A stretch of 4,526 nucleotides of DNA, taken from sequence record MT185428. The stretch is one strand, 5' to 3'. Below the pieces are notes generated by a model, which was not told where the DNA came from, ran no database searches, and saw nothing but the letters and a program-made list of their open reading frames with translations. This document shows positions 1 to 4,526 of the stretch, piece after piece. Made by a program: the position numbers and the translations under genes. Each line of letters begins with the position of its first letter. Position 1 is the stretch's first letter. Origin of the DNA: Escherichia phage EC6098.

Positions 1-1
1 C

Positions 2-29
2 GTTAAACTAAATATACATTATGCGCACT
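2..29 (-). other. dif-like XerC/XerD recombination motif (candidate attachment site), reverse orientation relative to canonical E. coli dif
   Basis: Plus strand 2-29 is GTTAAACTAAATATACATTATGCGCACT. The reverse complement of E. coli dif (GGTGCGCATAA-TGTATA-TTATGTTAAAT, recalled from memory) is ATTTAACATAATATACATTATGCGCACC. By hand alignment: XerC arm 10/11, central hexamer 6/6, XerD arm 7/11, total 23/28. Confidence 0.5.
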
Positions 30-41
30 AAGGTGCGCATA
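20..41. repeat. Perfect 9-bp inverted repeat TATGCGCAC-(TAAG)-GTGCGCATA; duplicates the XerC-arm-like sequence in inverted orientation
   Basis: Positions 20-28 (TATGCGCAC) are the exact reverse complement of 33-41 (GTGCGCATA), with a 4-nt spacer. The repeat overlaps the dif-like motif and lies just upstream of the Rep ribosome-binding site. Confidence 0.9.
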
Positions 42-62
42 TGCGTATTCTGGAGGTGTGTC

Positions 63-926
63 ATGGCTTGTACCCGTCCTTTGAACGCGTACCAGATGCC
101 ATCGGGGAAGATTTTTTTCACGCCGTCACGTGGCGCTAAATTCATTCAGTTGCCCTGCGGTCAGTGCATCGGTTGCCGTCTTGCTCATTCTCGTGACTGG
201 GCGACCCGCTGCGTTCATGAAGCCCACATGCACGATCACAATTGTTTTATCACCCTGACTTATTCGCCTGAGAATTTACCTGAAGGCGGTACTCTCGTTC
301 GTAAACATTTCACCGATTTTATGAAGCGTTTGCGTAAGGCTTTGGCTGTTGATGATATTTCGATTCGTTTTTTTGGCTGTGGTGAATATGGCTCTAAATT
401 AGAGCGACCGCATTATCACGCGATTATTTTTGGATATGACTTTCCGGATAAGACATTACACAAGGCTGGAAGATTTAATTTATATAGGTCTTCGCTTCTT
501 GAAAGATGTTGGACTTTTGGTTGGTCTGTTGTTGCTGCTTTTAGTTTTGAGTCGGCTGCTTACGTGGCGCGATACTGTGTTAAAAAAGTCACCGGTTCCC
601 GTGCAGATGAGCATTATGGACATCGCATACCCGAGTTTTCGGCTATGAGCAACAGGCCTGGTATTGGCTATGATTTTTTTATGGAATATTACGATGACAT
701 AGTTAATTCAGATGCGTGTATTGGTCGCGGCGGTCGTCAGATAAAACCGCCCCGCTATTATGACAAGTTATTATCAGGCTGTGATTTTGAGAAGTTGCAG
801 CAAAATAAAGAACGCCGACAGTTAAATGCCCAGGTATTAGACCCGTGGCGTTTGCAGGATTTGGATAAATTTAATCTGGTTAAATTCCAGCGAATGATGA
901 GGAAATTAGAAAATGGCTCACTCTGA
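63..926 (+). CDS. VP4: Rolling-circle replication initiation protein (HUH endonuclease, Microviridae VP4 / phiX174 gpA-like)
   Basis: Carries the three rolling-circle motifs: FITLTY (motif 1), HYHAIIFG (HUH motif 2) and YVARYCVKK (motif 3, two tyrosines spaced like the phiX174 gpA catalytic pair, YVAKYVNKK as recalled). Cys-rich N-terminal segment CGQCIGC...C...HEAHMHDHNC. Start chosen at ATG 63 because GGAGG at 52-56 lies 6 nt upstream. The track's ATG at 21 has no Shine-Dalgarno sequence and sits inside the palindrome, so it is less likely. Confidence 0.9.
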   Translation: MACTRPLNAYQMPSGKIFFTPSRGAKFIQLPCGQCIGCRLAHSRDWATRCVHEAHMHDHNCFITLTYSPENLPEGGTLVRKHFTDFMKRLRKALAVDDISIRFFGCGEYGSKLERPHYHAIIFGYDFPDKTLHKAGRFNLYRSSLLERCWTFGWSVVAAFSFESAAYVARYCVKKVTGSRADEHYGHRIPEFSAMSNRPGIGYDFFMEYYDDIVNSDACIGRGGRQIKPPRYYDKLLSGCDFEKLQQNKERRQLNAQVLDPWRLQDLDKFNLVKFQRMMRKLENGSL

Positions 927-1660: not shown

Positions 1661-1680
1661 AGACGGCTCCGGCCCTTCAG

Positions 1681-1717
1681 CCTGGCACAGCGCCCTACTT
1701 GATGTAACTGTGCCAGG
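1681..1717. repeat. Intergenic hairpin: 10-bp perfect inverted repeat (CCTGGCACAG / CTGTGCCAGG) with a 17-nt loop containing ACTTGAT
   Basis: Positions 1681-1690 are the reverse complement of 1708-1717. Loop 1691-1707 is CGCCCTACTTGATGTAA. Lies in the 157-nt VP3-VP1 intergenic region. No T-tract follows, so it is not an intrinsic terminator. Confidence 0.85.
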
Positions 1718-1729
1718 TGACACCGAAAC

Positions 1730-1759: not shown

Positions 1760-1817
1760 AGGTGTCAGTTTATACAGTAGTTTGTATAGTATTTAAACAA
1801 TTCCCTGAGGGGGGTTT
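1760..1817 (+). promoter_or_regulatory. AT-rich leader of the capsid gene with a candidate -10 element (TATAGT, 1785-1790) and G-rich Shine-Dalgarno sequence (GAGGGGGG, 1807-1814)
   Basis: TATAGT matches TATAAT at 5/6 and is preceded by TG at 1783-1784. No convincing -35 hexamer at 17-bp spacing. The Shine-Dalgarno core lies 3-7 nt upstream of ATG 1818. Confidence 0.3.
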
Positions 1818-3518
1818 ATGAGTAAATTCGGTCGTAAAGTACCTAGTAATGCAAAAAGTCAGCATAATTTTTCAGTAATCCCGAGTGCCAATATTCAGCG
1901 TTCGGTCTTTAACCGCAGCTCTGGTTATAAAACCACTTTTGACGCTGGTTATTTGATTCCCGTGTTTCTGGATGAGGCTTTGCCGGGTGATACGTTCCAC
2001 CTGAAAACGTCCGTACTGGCGCGTTTATCCACGCCAGTGGTGCCGTTTATGGATAACCTGCGACTGGACATCCAGTATTTTTCCGTGCCCTACCGTCTGG
2101 TCTGGGATAACTGGCAGAAGTTCAACGGTGAGCAGAAGAATCCAGGCGATTCGACGGATTACCTTATCCCGCAGATTAAAGCCCCTGCAGGCGGCTTCCC
2201 TGTAGGCTCCCTTGCCGATTATTTTGGTGTTCCCACAGGTGTGGAGAATATCAGTGTAAGCGCTCTGCCGTTCCGCGCTTATAACCTGATTTATAACGAG
2301 TGGTATCGTGATGAAAACCTGATTAATTCCGCCCCGCTTCCGCTTGGCGATGAGGAAGAAACAGGCCTCGCCAATTTCCCGCTGCGTAAGCGTGCCAAGC
2401 GTCACGATTACTTCACAAGTGCCCTGCCGTGGCCTCAGAAAGGTGAAGGCGTTGAGATTGGTTTAGGCGTTCCGCCGTCGTATACGCTGGAGTACCCTTA
2501 TTACAAGGAAGGTATGGGATTTATTTCGTCTAACTATGGTGCGTCTGGAAATATTGGTCGTACTTTTCCGACGTATATTGCTCGTAGTAGTGTTGGTGAT
2601 GATTCTTCATCTAACATTGGTAATGCTGCTTATTTTTCCGAAGGCCTGGAGAATGGTATTAATTTTCCGAATGCTCCGGCTCGTGGTCGCTATGATGTGC
2701 TTGGTGGTTTTGACCCCAATACACCTCCGGTTACGTTGAAGAAAGAAGGTGGTGAAGTTGTTGATAACCTCACGATTAACTCGCTGCGTCAGGCGTTCCA
2801 GCTTCAGCGGCTGCTTGAGCGTGATGCTCGCGGTGGTACGCGATACATTGAGATTATTCGCAGTCATTTTGGCGTCATTTCTCCTGATGCCCGTGTTCAG
2901 CGTCCTGAGTATCTTGGCTCTGGTTCGTTCGATATAAATATTAATCCCGTTCTTCAAAACTCCGCGACTACCGACGCCAGTCCGCAAGGTAACCTTGCCG
3001 CTTATGGCGTTTCAGGAGGTGTTAACCGTGGTTTTTCTCACTCTTTTGTTGAGCATTGCTTTGTTATTGGCCTTGTCTCCGTTCGAGCAGATTTGACCTA
3101 CCAGCAAGGCATTCCGCGCATGTTCTCCCGTCAGACCCGCTTTGATTTCTACTGGCCTGCACTGGCCCACCTGGGCGAACAGGCTATTCTTAACAAAGAG
3201 ATTTATGCGCAAGGTAACGCCAAGGATGATGAAGTCTTTGGCTACCAGGAACGTTATGCGGAGTACCGCTACCGACCGTCCCAGATTACTGGTAAATTGC
3301 GTTCTACCGACCCGCAATCCCTCGACGTGTGGCATTTAGCCCAGCGGTTCGACTCTCTGCCCGCACTGAATCAGGAGTTTATCGAGGAGAATCCACCGAT
3401 GAAGCGCGTTCTCGCCGTACAGGACGAACCCCAGTTCATCATGGATGCGTTCTTTGACCTGAAGTGTGTGCGGCCTATGCCTGTTTACTCAGTACCAGGT
3501 CTTATTGACCATTTCTAA
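1818..3518 (+). CDS. VP1: Major capsid protein (Microviridae VP1 / F-like)
   Basis: 566-aa ORF with strong Shine-Dalgarno sequence. N-terminus MSKFGRK...FSVIPSANIQRSVFNRS...FDAGYLIPVF and the central block LRQAFQLQRLLERDARGGTRYIEIIRSHFGV are characteristic of Microviridae capsid proteins as recalled. A Gly/Ser/Asn-rich insertion at roughly aa 210-315 is consistent with the gokushovirus surface loop. Confidence 0.95.
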   Translation: MSKFGRKVPSNAKSQHNFSVIPSANIQRSVFNRSSGYKTTFDAGYLIPVFLDEALPGDTFHLKTSVLARLSTPVVPFMDNLRLDIQYFSVPYRLVWDNWQKFNGEQKNPGDSTDYLIPQIKAPAGGFPVGSLADYFGVPTGVENISVSALPFRAYNLIYNEWYRDENLINSAPLPLGDEEETGLANFPLRKRAKRHDYFTSALPWPQKGEGVEIGLGVPPSYTLEYPYYKEGMGFISSNYGASGNIGRTFPTYIARSSVGDDSSSNIGNAAYFSEGLENGINFPNAPARGRYDVLGGFDPNTPPVTLKKEGGEVVDNLTINSLRQAFQLQRLLERDARGGTRYIEIIRSHFGVISPDARVQRPEYLGSGSFDININPVLQNSATTDASPQGNLAAYGVSGGVNRGFSHSFVEHCFVIGLVSVRADLTYQQGIPRMFSRQTRFDFYWPALAHLGEQAILNKEIYAQGNAKDDEVFGYQERYAEYRYRPSQITGKLRSTDPQSLDVWHLAQRFDSLPALNQEFIEENPPMKRVLAVQDEPQFIMDAFFDLKCVRPMPVYSVPGLIDHF

Positions 3519-3535
3519 GTTACATTGTCACTTTT

Positions 3536-3558
3536 GGCCTCTGCGGAGGCCTTTTTTT
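3536..3558 (+). terminator. Rho-independent terminator between the capsid and pilot genes
   Basis: GGCCTC-(TGCG)-GAGGCC forms a perfect 6-bp GC-rich stem (3536-3541 / 3546-3551) with a 4-nt loop, followed by seven T residues (3552-3558). Begins 18 nt after the capsid stop codon (3516-3518). Confidence 0.8.
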
Positions 3559-3572
3559 CATGAGGTGAAATT

Positions 3573-4352
3573 ATGGGCTTTTTATCATCTGCCGTTGGTG
3601 CTGTTGGTTCCATTGCCGGTTCTCTTCTCGGTGCCCACTCTGCCCAGCAGAACGCCGCACAGGCGAACAAGTTAACGATGGATTTGGCCAAAAACGGTAT
3701 GCAGTACCGCGTACAGGATTTGCGAAAAGCTGGTCTTAACCCGATTCTGGCCGTTACTGGTTCCGGTGGTCTTGGTTCCGTCAGTTCGTCAGGTATTCAG
3801 GCCGCCCAGCCTGCCGATTTCTCAGGAGTGGTTAATTCTGCGGTTAGCGTATTTGACGCCTTAACGCGCCGTCAGCAGCAGGAAGTTGCCCGTGAAGGCA
3901 TCATGTCTCAGATTGCGTTACAACGTAACCAGATTGCGAATAGCGCGGCTGATGTGAAGCTTAAAGAGGCTCAGGCTGCCCAGGCTATCCAGAGTGCCGA
4001 TAACATGCGATCGCAGTCGAATCTGATTAATCAGCAGGTTTTGACCGAGGCTTCCCGCCGTGCCAATATTGAATCTCAGACAGGCCTTAATTCTGCACAG
4101 CGGATTAGAACACAGTATCAAACTATGCAGGATAAGGTTATTCATGACTATTTACAGACTGATGCCGGTAAGGCTTCTACGGTAGGTTCTTATGATGCAA
4201 AATCTGGCGGGCTTCCAGCTCTTGGTAATTATATTTTTGGTGCTGGCGCTCGTTTCTTTGGTGATAAAAGTTCTGCGAAAGCGGTAAGCAAGGGGGGACG
4301 CCTCCCCCCTAACCAGTTCCAGCAGCAATTGATTAACAACTATAGGAGGTAA
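3573..4352 (+). CDS. VP2: DNA pilot / minor capsid protein (VP2-like, functional analogue of phiX174 H)
   Basis: 259-aa ORF with Shine-Dalgarno GAGGTG (3562-3567) 5 nt upstream. Gly/Ala/Ser-rich hydrophobic N-terminus (MGFLSSAVGAVGSIAGSLLGA) followed by a long Gln/Ala-rich, probably coiled-coil segment. Sits directly after the capsid gene, as in gokushoviruses. Confidence 0.75.
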   Translation: MGFLSSAVGAVGSIAGSLLGAHSAQQNAAQANKLTMDLAKNGMQYRVQDLRKAGLNPILAVTGSGGLGSVSSSGIQAAQPADFSGVVNSAVSVFDALTRRQQQEVAREGIMSQIALQRNQIANSAADVKLKEAQAAQAIQSADNMRSQSNLINQQVLTEASRRANIESQTGLNSAQRIRTQYQTMQDKVIHDYLQTDAGKASTVGSYDAKSGGLPALGNYIFGAGARFFGDKSSAKAVSKGGRLPPNQFQQQLINNYRR

Positions 4353-4354
4353 TT

Positions 4355-4474
4355 ATGGCTCGTTCTCGCCGTCGTATGTCTAAGCGTTCTTCCCGTCGTT
4401 CGTTCCGTAAGTACGCAAAGACGCATAAACGTAACTTTAAAGCCCGCTCCATGCGTGGCGGCATTCGTCTTTGA
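4355..4474 (+). CDS. Small arginine-rich DNA-binding/packaging protein (phiX174 J-like; gokushovirus small basic ORF)
   Basis: Hand translation gives MARSRRRMSKRSSRRSFRKYAKTHKRNFKARSMRGGIRL (39 aa, roughly 45 percent Arg/Lys), ending at TGA 4472-4474. Consensus AGGAGG at 4344-4349 lies 5 nt upstream of ATG 4355. The start is 2 nt past the VP2 stop codon. Not in the supplied ORF track, presumably because of a length cutoff. Confidence 0.75.
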   Translation: MARSRRRMSKRSSRRSFRKYAKTHKRNFKARSMRGGIRL

Positions 4475-4504
4475 TTGACAAAGTTGATCGTAACGATCTA
4501 TGAT
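4475..4504 (+). promoter_or_regulatory. Candidate sigma70 promoter reading rightward across the window end (toward Rep if the genome is circular)
   Basis: Perfect -35 TTGACA at 4475-4480, an 18-bp spacer, then -10 TATGAT at 4499-4504 (5/6 to TATAAT). Predicted transcription start near 4511. Located immediately after the small basic ORF stop codon. Confidence 0.5.
4486..4498. repeat. Short palindrome GATCG-TAA-CGATC containing two GATC (Dam) sites, within the promoter spacer
   Basis: Positions 4486-4490 (GATCG) are the reverse complement of 4494-4498 (CGATC). Lies between the -35 and -10 elements of the candidate promoter. Confidence 0.6.
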
Positions 4505-4526
4505 AATTATCGTAAGTCGTTGTTTT

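What the first reader, a model, noticed from the sequence alone, without database searches (positions are those of the whole stretch)
4475..4526. Near-consensus sigma70 promoter at the 3' end pointing out of the window, with a two-GATC palindrome in its spacer
TTGACA, an 18-bp spacer and TATGAT form a strong promoter whose transcript would start about 15 nt before the window end. If the molecule is circular, it reads through the dif-like site and palindrome into the Rep Shine-Dalgarno sequence (52-56), so this is probably the Rep promoter and the window is a circular genome opened in the Rep leader. The spacer holds a GATCG-TAA-CGATC palindrome. The two Dam sites and the dyad symmetry could let host methylation or a repressor regulate Rep expression, which is relevant to a lysogenic state. 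phiX174 is thought to avoid GATC altogether (from memory), which would make GATC sites in a promoter noteworthy.
Basis: partly seen in the sequence, partly recalled or inferred. Interest (0 to 1): 0.45.

Follow-up and report, generated by a model that had tools for sequence, protein, structure and literature searches.

The report
Rep promoter split by prophage integration
A small temperate single-stranded-DNA phage of E. coli has a strong-looking promoter that can reach its replication gene only when the genome is a circle, and the promoter is built around a conserved pair of Dam methylation sites of unknown function.

Summary
TTGACA (4475-4480), an 18-nt spacer and TATGAT (4499-4504) score 11/12, the best sigma70-like site in the genome. 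The spacer holds GATCG-TAA-CGATC (4486-4498).

The window is a 4526-nt enterobacterial gokushovirus opened at its dif-like attP. A circular metagenome contig and four prophage attR junctions confirm that 4526 joins 1. In the circle the promoter therefore reads through attP and a 9-bp hairpin into Rep (ATG 63).

- In all 18 E. coli prophages examined, XerCD integration puts Rep at the left end. In the 15 that carry the promoter, it sits at the right end facing outward toward hipA, so it cannot drive Rep while integrated.
- The promoter hexamers occur in only one intergenic lineage (type A). The palindrome is kept in six lineages, with invariant arms, a free 3-nt loop and diverged flanks. All genomes are depleted in GATC (2-8 observed, 11-18 expected).
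- The likely Rep origin is elsewhere, a covarying stem-loop with CTTGAT in its loop at 1681-1717.

The promoter is probably real but lineage-specific and dispensable. The palindrome is an older independent element. A Dam/SeqA role is plausible but untested.

The parts
4355..4474 (+). VP8 gene (39 aa, Arg/Lys-rich DNA-binding protein). It is the last gene before the intergenic region; its stop codon TGA is at 4472-4474.
   Evidence: Translation. The same protein is found in all close relatives. The gene is named in PMC7062461.
4475..4480 (+). -35 hexamer TTGACA (6/6), abutting the VP8 stop codon.
   Evidence: Invariant in 16 type A sequences (10 haplotypes). Absent in all other intergenic lineages.
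4486..4498 (.). 13-bp dyad GATCG-TAA-CGATC with two Dam sites (4486-4489 and 4495-4498), lying in the promoter spacer at about -26 to -14 relative to a start near 4511.
   Evidence: The arms are 10/10 invariant in 6 intergenic lineages. The loop is 0/3 invariant and the flanks 1/10 invariant on each side. The dyad always starts 10-11 nt after the VP8 stop. As a ssDNA hairpin it is worth only about -3 kcal/mol.
4499..4504 (+). -10 hexamer TATGAT (5/6).
   Evidence: Type A variants are TATGAT (8), TACGAT (7) and TATGGT (1). Only positions 3 and 5 vary; T1, A2 and T6 are always kept.
4509..4514 (+). Predicted transcription start zone. It implies a leader of about 75-80 nt running across 4526 to 1 and on to the Rep ATG.
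   Evidence: Inferred from the usual distance between -10 and +1. Not mapped.
2..29 (.). Phage dif-like attP. The XerD-type arm is GTTAAACTAAA (2-12). The central region TATACA (13-18) and the XerC arm TTATGCGCAC (19-28) are identical to E. coli dif.
   Evidence: Comparison with attL and attR of prophage L001. XerC/XerD and the dif motif were shown to be required for lysogeny in PMC7062461.
20..41 (+). 9-bp hairpin TATGCGCAC-TAAG-GTGCGCATA in the Rep leader. The XerC arm pairs with an inverted copy of itself.
52..926 (+). Rep (VP4) Shine-Dalgarno GGAGG (52-56) and Rep coding sequence (63-926).
   Evidence: Pfam PF23343.
1681..1717 (+). Context only: probable (+)-strand origin. A 10-bp stem (1681-1690 with 1708-1717) carries the loop CGCCCTACTTGATGTAA.
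   Evidence: Used here to exclude the rival reading that the GATC palindrome is the origin.

Best explanation
The site at 4475-4504 is most likely a working sigma70 promoter that belongs to one intergenic lineage, type A. Type A was the commonest lineage in the Escherichia sample.

**In the circle.** The promoter sits between the last gene (VP8) and the phage's dif-like attP. In the circular replicative form it would start transcription near 4511. The transcript would read through attP (2-29) and the 9-bp hairpin (20-41) into Rep.

**In the prophage.** XerCD recombination happens inside attP, so integration cuts this unit. The promoter ends up at the right prophage end, firing outward across attR toward the 3' end of hipA. 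Rep ends up at the left end behind the host dif, with no promoter-like site upstream. Promoter and Rep are rejoined only by excision or at the junction of a tandem array. This could help explain how a phage with no repressor keeps Rep low as a prophage and resumes replication once excised.

**The palindrome.** The GATC dyad in the spacer is an older and separately conserved 13-bp element. Type A appears to have built its -35 (by substitutions) and its -10 (in an insertion of about 8 nt) around it. The most likely role of the dyad is sequence-specific protein recognition linked to Dam methylation, for example SeqA binding to the hemimethylated pair 9 bp apart. In type A this would make it an operator inside the promoter.

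**Shown versus inferred.**
- Shown: the sequence features, circular continuity, prophage topology and conservation patterns.
- Inferred: promoter activity, the start site, silencing of Rep by integration, and any Dam/SeqA effect.
For: **Promoter quality and placement**
- It scores 11/12 and is the only site of 10/12 or better in the genome.
- It lies on the coding strand in non-coding DNA about 84 nt upstream of the Rep ATG in the circle.

**Selection within type A (16 sequences, 10 haplotypes)**
- Positions 4475-4500 show 0 variable sites out of 26.
- The adjacent VP8 gene shows 14 variable sites out of 120.
- Positions 4501-4526 plus position 1 show 5 variable sites.
- The two changes inside the -10 fall on positions 3 and 5, the hexamer positions I take to be least constrained (own knowledge of sigma70 promoters), and TAnnnT is always kept.

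**Topology**
- All 18 E. coli prophages examined are collinear with the window. They lie at the chromosomal dif next to hipA, with Rep first and VP8 plus the intergenic region last.
- Six hundred nt spanning attL and the host DNA upstream of Rep contain no promoter-like site.
- No terminator-like site lies between the promoter and hipA.
- Lysogenic cultures release fewer particles, and excision is continuous (PMC7062461).

**Palindrome**
- The arms are 10/10 invariant across six lineages whose flanks are only 51% identical and whose loops differ: TAA, TGA, TTT, TCT, TTT, ACA.
- GATC is depleted in all 24 genomes examined (2-8 observed, 11-18 expected), and no other GATC position is shared by all the palindrome-bearing genomes.
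- SeqA binds pairs of hemimethylated GATC and works best when they are close to 10 or 20 bp apart (PMC2912659).
Against: - The promoter is absent from lineages B, C, L010, L100-L107, L229 and the robinz microviruses.
- Type B prophages encode Rep with the same protein accession as type A prophages and lack the promoter. Rep can therefore be expressed some other way, for example by read-through from upstream promoters.
- An 18-nt spacer is suboptimal, and there is no extended -10.
- A site of 11/12 or better arises by chance in 5.5% of shuffles.
- The invariance of 4475-4500 could be caused by the palindrome and its neighbours rather than by promoter function.
- No transcript data were available.
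- For the Dam/SeqA idea, the invariant G and C flanking each GATC and the strict dyad are not required by SeqA or Dam as far as I know.
- The element has been lost repeatedly, so it is dispensable.
Confidence: 0.5

Rival explanations
1. The hexamers are a fortuitous promoter look-alike. Rep would be transcribed in all lineages, type A included, by read-through from upstream promoters. One candidate is the site conserved inside VP2 at 4041-4070. On this view the constraint on 4475-4500 reflects only the palindrome element.
For: - Most intergenic lineages have no promoter-like site here.
- Types A and B share Rep with the same protein accession.
- A TTGACC/G site with a 17-18 nt spacer and a (T)AATAT(T) hexamer occurs inside VP2 in all lineages.
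- TTGACA also occurs as part of the XerD-type arm in type C, so the motif can arise in this region for other reasons.
- The chance rate for a site of 11/12 or better is 5.5%.
Against: - Both hexamers are needed together at an allowed spacing, and both are type A novelties. The -35 arose by substitutions and the -10 inside an insertion of about 8 nt.
- The -10 varies only at positions 3 and 5, which I take to be the least constrained, in 16 sequences.
- The -35 and the AAAGTT stretch are invariant although they lie outside the palindrome.
Confidence: 0.2
2. The palindrome acts in the single-stranded viral DNA as a small hairpin. It could be a signal for complementary-strand priming. It could also form a duplex GATC that lets Dam mark the viral strand, so that MutH or SeqA treat the incoming strand as parental. 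On this view the overlap with the promoter is incidental.
For: - The genome is ssDNA in the virion (PMC7062461).
- All six variants fold into the same hairpin of 5 bp with a 3-nt loop.
- Loop length is fixed while loop sequence is free.
- In phiX174, engineered intergenic GATCs near the A promoter had the strongest mismatch-repair effect (PMC5014478).
Against: - The hairpin is marginal, at about -3 kcal/mol with z-scores of -1 to -1.9.
- The arms show no covariation and are sequence-invariant, which suggests sequence recognition rather than shape recognition.
- Much stronger hairpins exist elsewhere: 20-41, 1681-1717, 3536-3551 and 4291-4310.
- Many viable-looking lineages lack the palindrome.
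Confidence: 0.15
3. The main role of the promoter is in the prophage. It would fire outward across attR into the convergent hipA toxin gene. This would produce antisense RNA or transcriptional interference that changes host HipBA activity.
For: - In every type A prophage the promoter faces the 3' end of hipA about 120 nt away.
- No predicted terminator lies in between.
- Type A was the commonest lineage among the lysogens sampled.
Against: - The idea rests on position only.
- Types B and C integrate at the same place without such a promoter.
- Lying next to hipA follows automatically from using dif.
Confidence: 0.07
4. The palindrome is the Rep nick site (the (+)-strand origin), or it is an intrinsic terminator that ends the VP2-VP8 transcript.
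For: - It is a dyad in an intergenic region immediately upstream of Rep and immediately downstream of the last gene.
- L100 and L101 have a T-rich tract after it.
Against: **Against the origin reading**
- A stem-loop with CTTGAT in the loop resembles the phiX174 nick sequence. It is found in 83 of the 107 distinct gokushovirus loci then held (84 of 109 records counting the window and its duplicate L009), with compensatory changes at 8 of 8 stem pairs. In this window it lies at 1681-1717.
- The palindrome is missing from genomes whose Rep is 93% identical (L010) and from type C and mar4.

**Against the terminator reading**
- The stem is only 5 bp, most lineages have no T-run after it, and the terminator scan does not list it.
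Confidence: 0.04

Closest known systems
phiX174 gene A promoter (pA) in the H-A intergenic region
   Same: Both are Microviridae. In both, the replication-initiator gene is preceded by a short intergenic region that follows the last structural gene and contains its promoter (PMC5014478). Both genomes are depleted in GATC.
   Different: phiX174 has no GATC at all, no dif-like site and no lysogeny, and its origin lies inside gene A. Here the promoter carries two GATCs and is separated from Rep by an attP. It exists in only one lineage of the genus.
Promoter-gene units that work only in the circle, for mobile elements (own knowledge): Tn916 transfer genes read across the circular joint; junction promoters of IS911, IS30 and IS2 circles; lambda int/sib retroregulation
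   Same: The promoter and its target lie at opposite ends of the integrated element. They are joined only when the element is circular. Expression state therefore follows topology.
   Different: Here the complete promoter sits on one side of the recombination site, not split between the ends. The recombinase is the host XerCD, and the element is a 4.5-kb ssDNA phage. No expression data exist for this case.
Promoters controlled by Dam or SeqA (own knowledge): IS10 transposase pIN, the dnaA promoter region, agn43/OxyR, pap/Lrp
   Same: GATC sites lie inside a promoter in a Dam+ host. The pair spacing of 9 bp is close to the roughly 10 bp that SeqA prefers (PMC2912659).
   Different: In the known cases the GATCs overlap a hexamer or the binding site of a known regulator. 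Here they form a strict dyad in the spacer. The dyad is also conserved where no promoter exists. Methylation dependence was not tested.
Mobile elements that integrate by XerCD at dif (IMEX), such as CTXphi, VGJphi and TLCphi; and the enterogokushovirus EC6098
   Same: There is a dif-like attP whose XerC arm and central region match the host dif. Integration is at the chromosomal dif, and both sites are retained (PMC7062461).
   Different: As far as I know, CTXphi controls its replication gene through a repressor, RstR. This phage encodes no regulator. Promoters and GATC sites are not mentioned in PMC7062461.

Membership tests
sigma70-type promoter | -35 and -10 hexamers close to consensus, including A2 and T6 of the -10 | tested here: met
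   TTGACA is 6/6 and TATGAT is 5/6.
sigma70-type promoter | Spacer of 16-18 nt | tested here: met
   The spacer is 18 nt, the upper limit and not the optimal 17.
sigma70-type promoter | Located upstream of a gene, on the same strand, in non-coding DNA | tested here: met
   In the circle it lies about 84 nt upstream of the Rep ATG. Continuity is shown by L011 and by attR junctions.
sigma70-type promoter | Conserved in relatives | tested here: inconclusive
   The -35 is invariant and the -10 keeps TAnnnT in 16 type A sequences. The promoter is absent from all other intergenic lineages.
sigma70-type promoter | Mapped transcription start or demonstrated activity | not testable with these tools
   No RNA data were available.
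Dam/SeqA-controlled promoter | Two or more GATC sites within the promoter, about one helical turn apart, in a Dam+ host | tested here: met
   GATC lies at 4486 and 4495, 9 bp apart. The hosts are E. coli. The spacing preference is from PMC2912659.
Dam/SeqA-controlled promoter | Expression depends on methylation state or on SeqA | not testable with these tools
   This needs reporter assays in dam and seqA hosts, or methylome data.
Rolling-circle (+)-strand origin (Rep nick site) | A nick motif resembling CTTGAT, conserved wherever Rep is conserved | tested here: not met
   The palindrome has no such motif and is absent from genomes with 93% identical Rep. The motif is found instead at 1681-1717 in a covarying stem-loop.
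Intrinsic terminator | G+C-rich stem followed by a T-run | tested here: not met
   The stem is 5 bp and is followed by TATGATAA. The terminator scan does not report it.
Circle-dependent promoter-gene unit of a mobile element | Promoter and gene lie at opposite ends of the integrated form and are joined in the circle | tested here: met
   Prophages L001-L003, L007, L089-L093 and L095-L099 show the separated form. The window's own 4526-to-1 junction and circular contig L011 show the joined form.
Circle-dependent promoter-gene unit of a mobile element | The gene is expressed only, or mainly, from the circular form | not testable with these tools
   There is only indirect support: no promoter-like site upstream of Rep in the prophage, and fewer particles from lysogens (PMC7062461).
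XerCD/dif-integrating element (IMEX) | A dif-like site, with integration at the chromosomal dif | tested here: met
   Window 13-28 is identical to the dif central region plus XerC arm. All 18 prophages lie at dif beside hipA. The XerC/XerD requirement is from PMC7062461.

The most novel reading that the evidence does not exclude
A 4.5-kb temperate ssDNA phage might control lysogeny with no regulator protein of its own, using two host systems. First, XerCD integration at attP disconnects Rep from its promoter, giving a topological off-switch. Second, the conserved GATCG-N3-CGATC dyad acts as a Dam/SeqA-timed operator, or as the site of an unknown host protein. It would transiently silence freshly made hemimethylated replicative forms. 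This would limit Rep and allow either integration or a non-lethal carrier state.
Probability: 0.15. Interest if true: 0.8.

Novelty: new variant of a known kind. Interest (0 to 1): 0.5.

Why it matters
Enterogokushoviruses are the only tractable model for the abundant gokushoviruses. They lysogenize without an integrase or a repressor, and how the prophage stays quiet is not explained in the founding paper (PMC7062461).

The geometry found here gives a simple hypothesis that can be tested directly. The promoter and Rep sit on opposite sides of attP, so replication-gene expression follows integration state automatically.

The conserved double-GATC dyad stands out because GATC is counter-selected in these genomes and is completely absent from phiX174. 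It is a defined 13-bp target for mutagenesis.

The comparison also locates the probable (+)-strand origin of gokushoviruses. I found no description of it in the open-access literature I searched.

Tried and rejected
- **Rep origin at the palindrome: rejected.** A covarying stem-loop with CTTGAT in the loop lies at 1681-1717. The palindrome is also missing in genomes with near-identical Rep.
- **Intrinsic terminator: rejected.** The stem is only 5 bp and has no T-run after it.
- **Known RNA family: none.** Rfam gave only a chance snoRNA hit at E = 0.99.
- **Intergenic region acquired from a plasmid or another phage: no evidence.** There was no plasmid match. The only phage matches were two robinz microviruses, over the dif and hairpin part only, and they lack both promoter and palindrome.
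- **Metagenome scan with a VP8 C-terminus pattern.** It returned 120 stretches, almost all distant gokushoviruses, plus one type C prophage. It gave no new palindrome lineage.
- **Two scans of species-representative genomes.** One gave 0 hits and the other 24 hits, none in Enterobacteriaceae by record title.
- **IMG/VR pattern scans.** They recovered only the window and L011.
- **Alternative promoters in the VP8-Rep spacer of lineages B, C and L100-L102.** None reached 9/12.
- **Resemblances judged by eye and not pursued.** I compared the sequence with Fur box, ARG box, IHF, matS and DnaA box motifs. All were weak, and none is claimed.

Full report
**What the window is**

The six open reading frames all lie on the + strand:

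| Gene | Coordinates |
|---|---|
| Rep (VP4) | 63-926 |
| VP5 | 913-1182 |
| VP3 | 1163-1660 |
| VP1 | 1818-3518 |
| VP2 | 3573-4352 |
| VP8 | 4355-4474 |

This is the gene order described for enterobacterial gokushoviruses that lysogenize through host XerCD at dif (PMC7062461). The window is identical to IMG/VR contig IMGVR_UViG_2974561223_000001. Seven of 5426 complete E. coli genomes carry a collinear prophage at 86-94% identity. All seven lie at the chromosomal dif next to hipA.

**Checking the observation**

All the described features are present at the stated coordinates:
- TTGACA at 4475-4480, immediately after the VP8 stop codon.
- An 18-nt spacer.
- TATGAT at 4499-4504.
- The dyad GATCG-TAA-CGATC at 4486-4498.
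- The Rep SD at 52-56.

The site scores 11/12. It is the only site of 10/12 or better on either strand, and a site this good appears in 5.5% of 2000 dinucleotide shuffles.

GATC occurs 4 times against 13-17 expected, and no shuffle out of 1000 was that low. Two of the four sites are the palindrome arms.

**Circularity and the Rep leader**

The first 29 nt of the window form a dif-like site. Positions 13-28 are identical to the central region and XerC arm of E. coli dif. The XerD-type arm (2-12) is diverged.

In prophage L001 the right junction reads window 4475-4526, then window 1-27, then host DNA. The left junction reads host dif, then window 29 onward. A circular metagenome contig (L011) carries VP8 stop, TTGACA, palindrome, TACGAT, dif-like site, hairpin, SD and Rep ATG without interruption.

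The window is therefore a circle opened at attP. A transcript starting near 4511 would have a leader of about 78 nt. That leader contains attP and the 9-bp hairpin at 20-41 and ends at the Rep SD.

**What integration does to the unit**

Recombination occurs inside attP. As a result, every prophage has Rep as its first gene behind the host dif, and VP8 plus the intergenic region as its last segment (18 prophages, 15 of them type A).

The promoter then points out of the prophage, across attR, toward the 3' end of the convergent hipA gene about 120 nt away. No terminator-like site lies between them. Six hundred nt spanning attL and the host DNA upstream of Rep contain no promoter-like site.

The promoter can therefore serve Rep only in the circular form, or at the internal junction of a tandem array. 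Tandem arrays do exist in relatives L105 and L106. This is a sequence-level fact. That it actually silences Rep is an inference. It is consistent with the report that lysogenic cultures release fewer particles and that excision is continuous (PMC7062461). That paper does not mention promoters, transcription or GATC.

**Comparative anatomy of the VP8-Rep spacer**

I collected about 30 enterogokushovirus spacers: the window; 18 E. coli prophages (seven from complete genomes, eleven from draft or run assemblies); prophages in other or unidentified hosts; and circular contigs or phage records from metagenomes and faeces. They fall into at least a dozen unalignable types.

*Promoter distribution.* The hexamers exist only in type A (16 sequences, 10 haplotypes). 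No other type has a sigma70-like site of 9/12 or better in this spacer. Type B prophages encode Rep, VP5 and VP3 proteins with the same accessions as type A prophages. The spacer is therefore exchanged by recombination, and this promoter is not required for Rep function.

*Constraint within type A.* The pattern still looks constrained:

| Segment | Variable sites |
|---|---|
| 4475-4500 | 0 of 26 |
| VP8 gene | 14 of 120 |
| 4501-4526 plus position 1 | 5 of 27 |

The two variable positions inside the -10 are positions 3 and 5, giving TATGAT, TACGAT and TATGGT. T1, A2 and T6 are always kept.

*Likely origin of the type A promoter.* Alignment with the other types shows that type A gained its -35 by substitutions. 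It gained its -10 inside an insertion of about 8 nt placed right after the palindrome.

**The palindrome is a separate, older element**

GATCG-N3-CGATC is present in six spacer types: A, B, L100, L101, L102 and L103. Rep identity to the window in these types goes down to 78%.
- It always starts 10-11 nt after the VP8 stop.
- Its arms are invariant at 10 of 10 positions.
- Its loops are unrelated: TAA, TGA, TTT, TCT, TTT and ACA.
- Its flanks are only 51% identical.

It is absent as a clean indel from type C, mar4, L010, L104-L107, L229 and the robinz microviruses. It is therefore dispensable.

All 24 genomes examined are GATC-poor (2-8 observed, 11-18 expected), and no other GATC position is shared by all the palindrome-bearing genomes. 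Invariant arms without covariation, a fixed spacing and retention against a genome-wide bias all point to sequence-specific recognition that involves the GATCs themselves. A purely structural role fits poorly, because the ssDNA hairpin is worth only about -3 kcal/mol.

SeqA binds pairs of hemimethylated GATC and works best when they are close to 10 or 20 bp apart (PMC2912659). The 9-bp spacing fits that preference. However, nothing here tests SeqA or Dam, and the conserved flanking G and C are not explained by them.

**The origin is elsewhere**

While following a short match to unrelated microviruses (window 1677-1724), I found that 1681-1717 is a perfect 10-bp stem. Its loop, CGCCCTACTTGATGTAA, resembles the phiX174 gene A nick sequence CAACTTG/ATATTAATAAC (my own knowledge).

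A stem-loop with CTTGAT in the loop occurs on the Rep-sense strand in 83 of the 107 distinct gokushovirus loci then held (84 of 109 records counting the window and its duplicate L009), with Rep identity down to about 41%. The stems differ but remain complementary. In 59 distinct sequences, all 8 predicted pairs show compensatory double changes.

One caveat applies: the sequences were chosen for having an inverted repeat, so the pair counts are biased upward. The stem-loop is also present in the lineages that lack the GATC palindrome. This removes the main structural rival, that the palindrome is the Rep origin.

**Most likely mechanism and rivals**

My best account has confidence about 0.5. 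Type A carries a real promoter that boosts Rep expression from circles and is uncoupled from Rep by integration. It was assembled around a pre-existing protein-recognition dyad, which thereby became a potential operator.

| Rival | Confidence |
|---|---|
| Chance look-alike, with Rep read from upstream promoters in all lineages | 0.2 |
| ssDNA hairpin or strand-marking function of the dyad | 0.15 |
| Outward promoter acting on hipA in lysogens | 0.07 |
| Origin or terminator | 0.04 |

**Novelty and score**

A sigma70 promoter upstream of a microvirus replication gene is ordinary; phiX174 has one in the equivalent place. Three things are not described in the literature I could search:
- The placement of the promoter across an XerCD attP from its gene.
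- The conserved double-GATC dyad in GATC-depleted genomes.
- The lineage-restricted assembly of a promoter around that dyad.

The principle of circle-dependent expression is already known from transposons and IS elements. I therefore rate this a new variant of a known kind, with interest 0.5. It turns the open question of how repressor-less gokushovirus prophages are kept quiet into a few simple experiments.

Noticed in passing
window 1681-1717 (VP3-VP1 intergenic region): A perfect 10-bp stem carries the loop CGCCCTACTTGATGTAA. A stem-loop with CTTGAT in the loop occurs in 83 of the 107 distinct gokushovirus loci then held (84 of 109 records counting the window and its duplicate), and all 8 predicted stem pairs show compensatory changes. 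The loop resembles the phiX174 origin nick sequence. This is probably the (+)-strand origin of gokushoviruses. It also explains the 92-96% matches of window 1677-1724 to unrelated microviruses.
   Followed up: partly
window 20-41: A 9-bp hairpin, TATGCGCAC-TAAG-GTGCGCATA. The XerC arm of the dif-like site pairs with an inverted copy just downstream. In ssDNA this would make the XerC arm double-stranded. Other lineages (type C, mar4, L102) instead have inverted repeats that flank the whole dif-like site.
   Followed up: partly
L004, L100-L103, L105, L107: between the VP8 stop and the dif-like site: A second sequence resembling the XerD arm (TTAAC..., or CTGTAACA in L105) lies 11-33 nt upstream of the true XerD arm, in direct orientation. 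In B and L100-L103 it sits 6-8 nt after the GATC palindrome. Its function is unknown.
   Followed up: no
L001 7461-7620 and the equivalent region in other type A prophages: In lysogens the promoter points out of the prophage across attR into the 3' end of the convergent hipA toxin gene about 120 nt away. No predicted terminator lies in between, so antisense hipA transcription is possible.
   Followed up: partly
window 4041-4070 (inside VP2): A promoter-like site, TTGACC/G with a 17-18 nt spacer and a (T)AATAT(T) hexamer, is kept in all lineages, including those with Rep only 84-86% identical. It could be the shared promoter for VP8 and Rep, or it could merely reflect coding constraint.
   Followed up: no
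window 1762-1790 and 3536-3558: GTGTCA-17-TATAGT lies in non-coding DNA 28 nt upstream of VP1 and is conserved in types A and B and in mar4. A strong terminator-like hairpin, GGCCTC-TGCG-GAGGCC followed by seven T, lies just after VP1. Together they suggest a separate capsid-gene transcription unit.
   Followed up: no
window 4291-4310 (3' part of VP2): A G6/C6 hairpin, AGGGGGG-ACGCCT-CCCCCCT, lies inside the coding sequence. L011 has a similar hairpin with a different loop at the same place. This is the hypervariable C-terminal part of VP2.
   Followed up: no
window 4502-4511: A perfect 10-bp AT-rich palindrome, GATAATTATC, overlaps the -10 and the predicted start. It is broken by natural variants at 4503 (L003) and 4511 (L090), so it is probably not essential.
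   Followed up: partly
L105 686-9199 and L106 5001-10861: Two gokushovirus prophages lie in tandem at one site. The internal junction recreates the circular arrangement, with the VP8 end followed by attP and then Rep.
   Followed up: no
L002 versus L004: Type A and type B prophages encode Rep, VP5 and VP3 proteins with the same accessions, but differ in VP1, VP2 and the VP8-Rep spacer. This indicates recombination that swaps the right half of the genome.
   Followed up: partly
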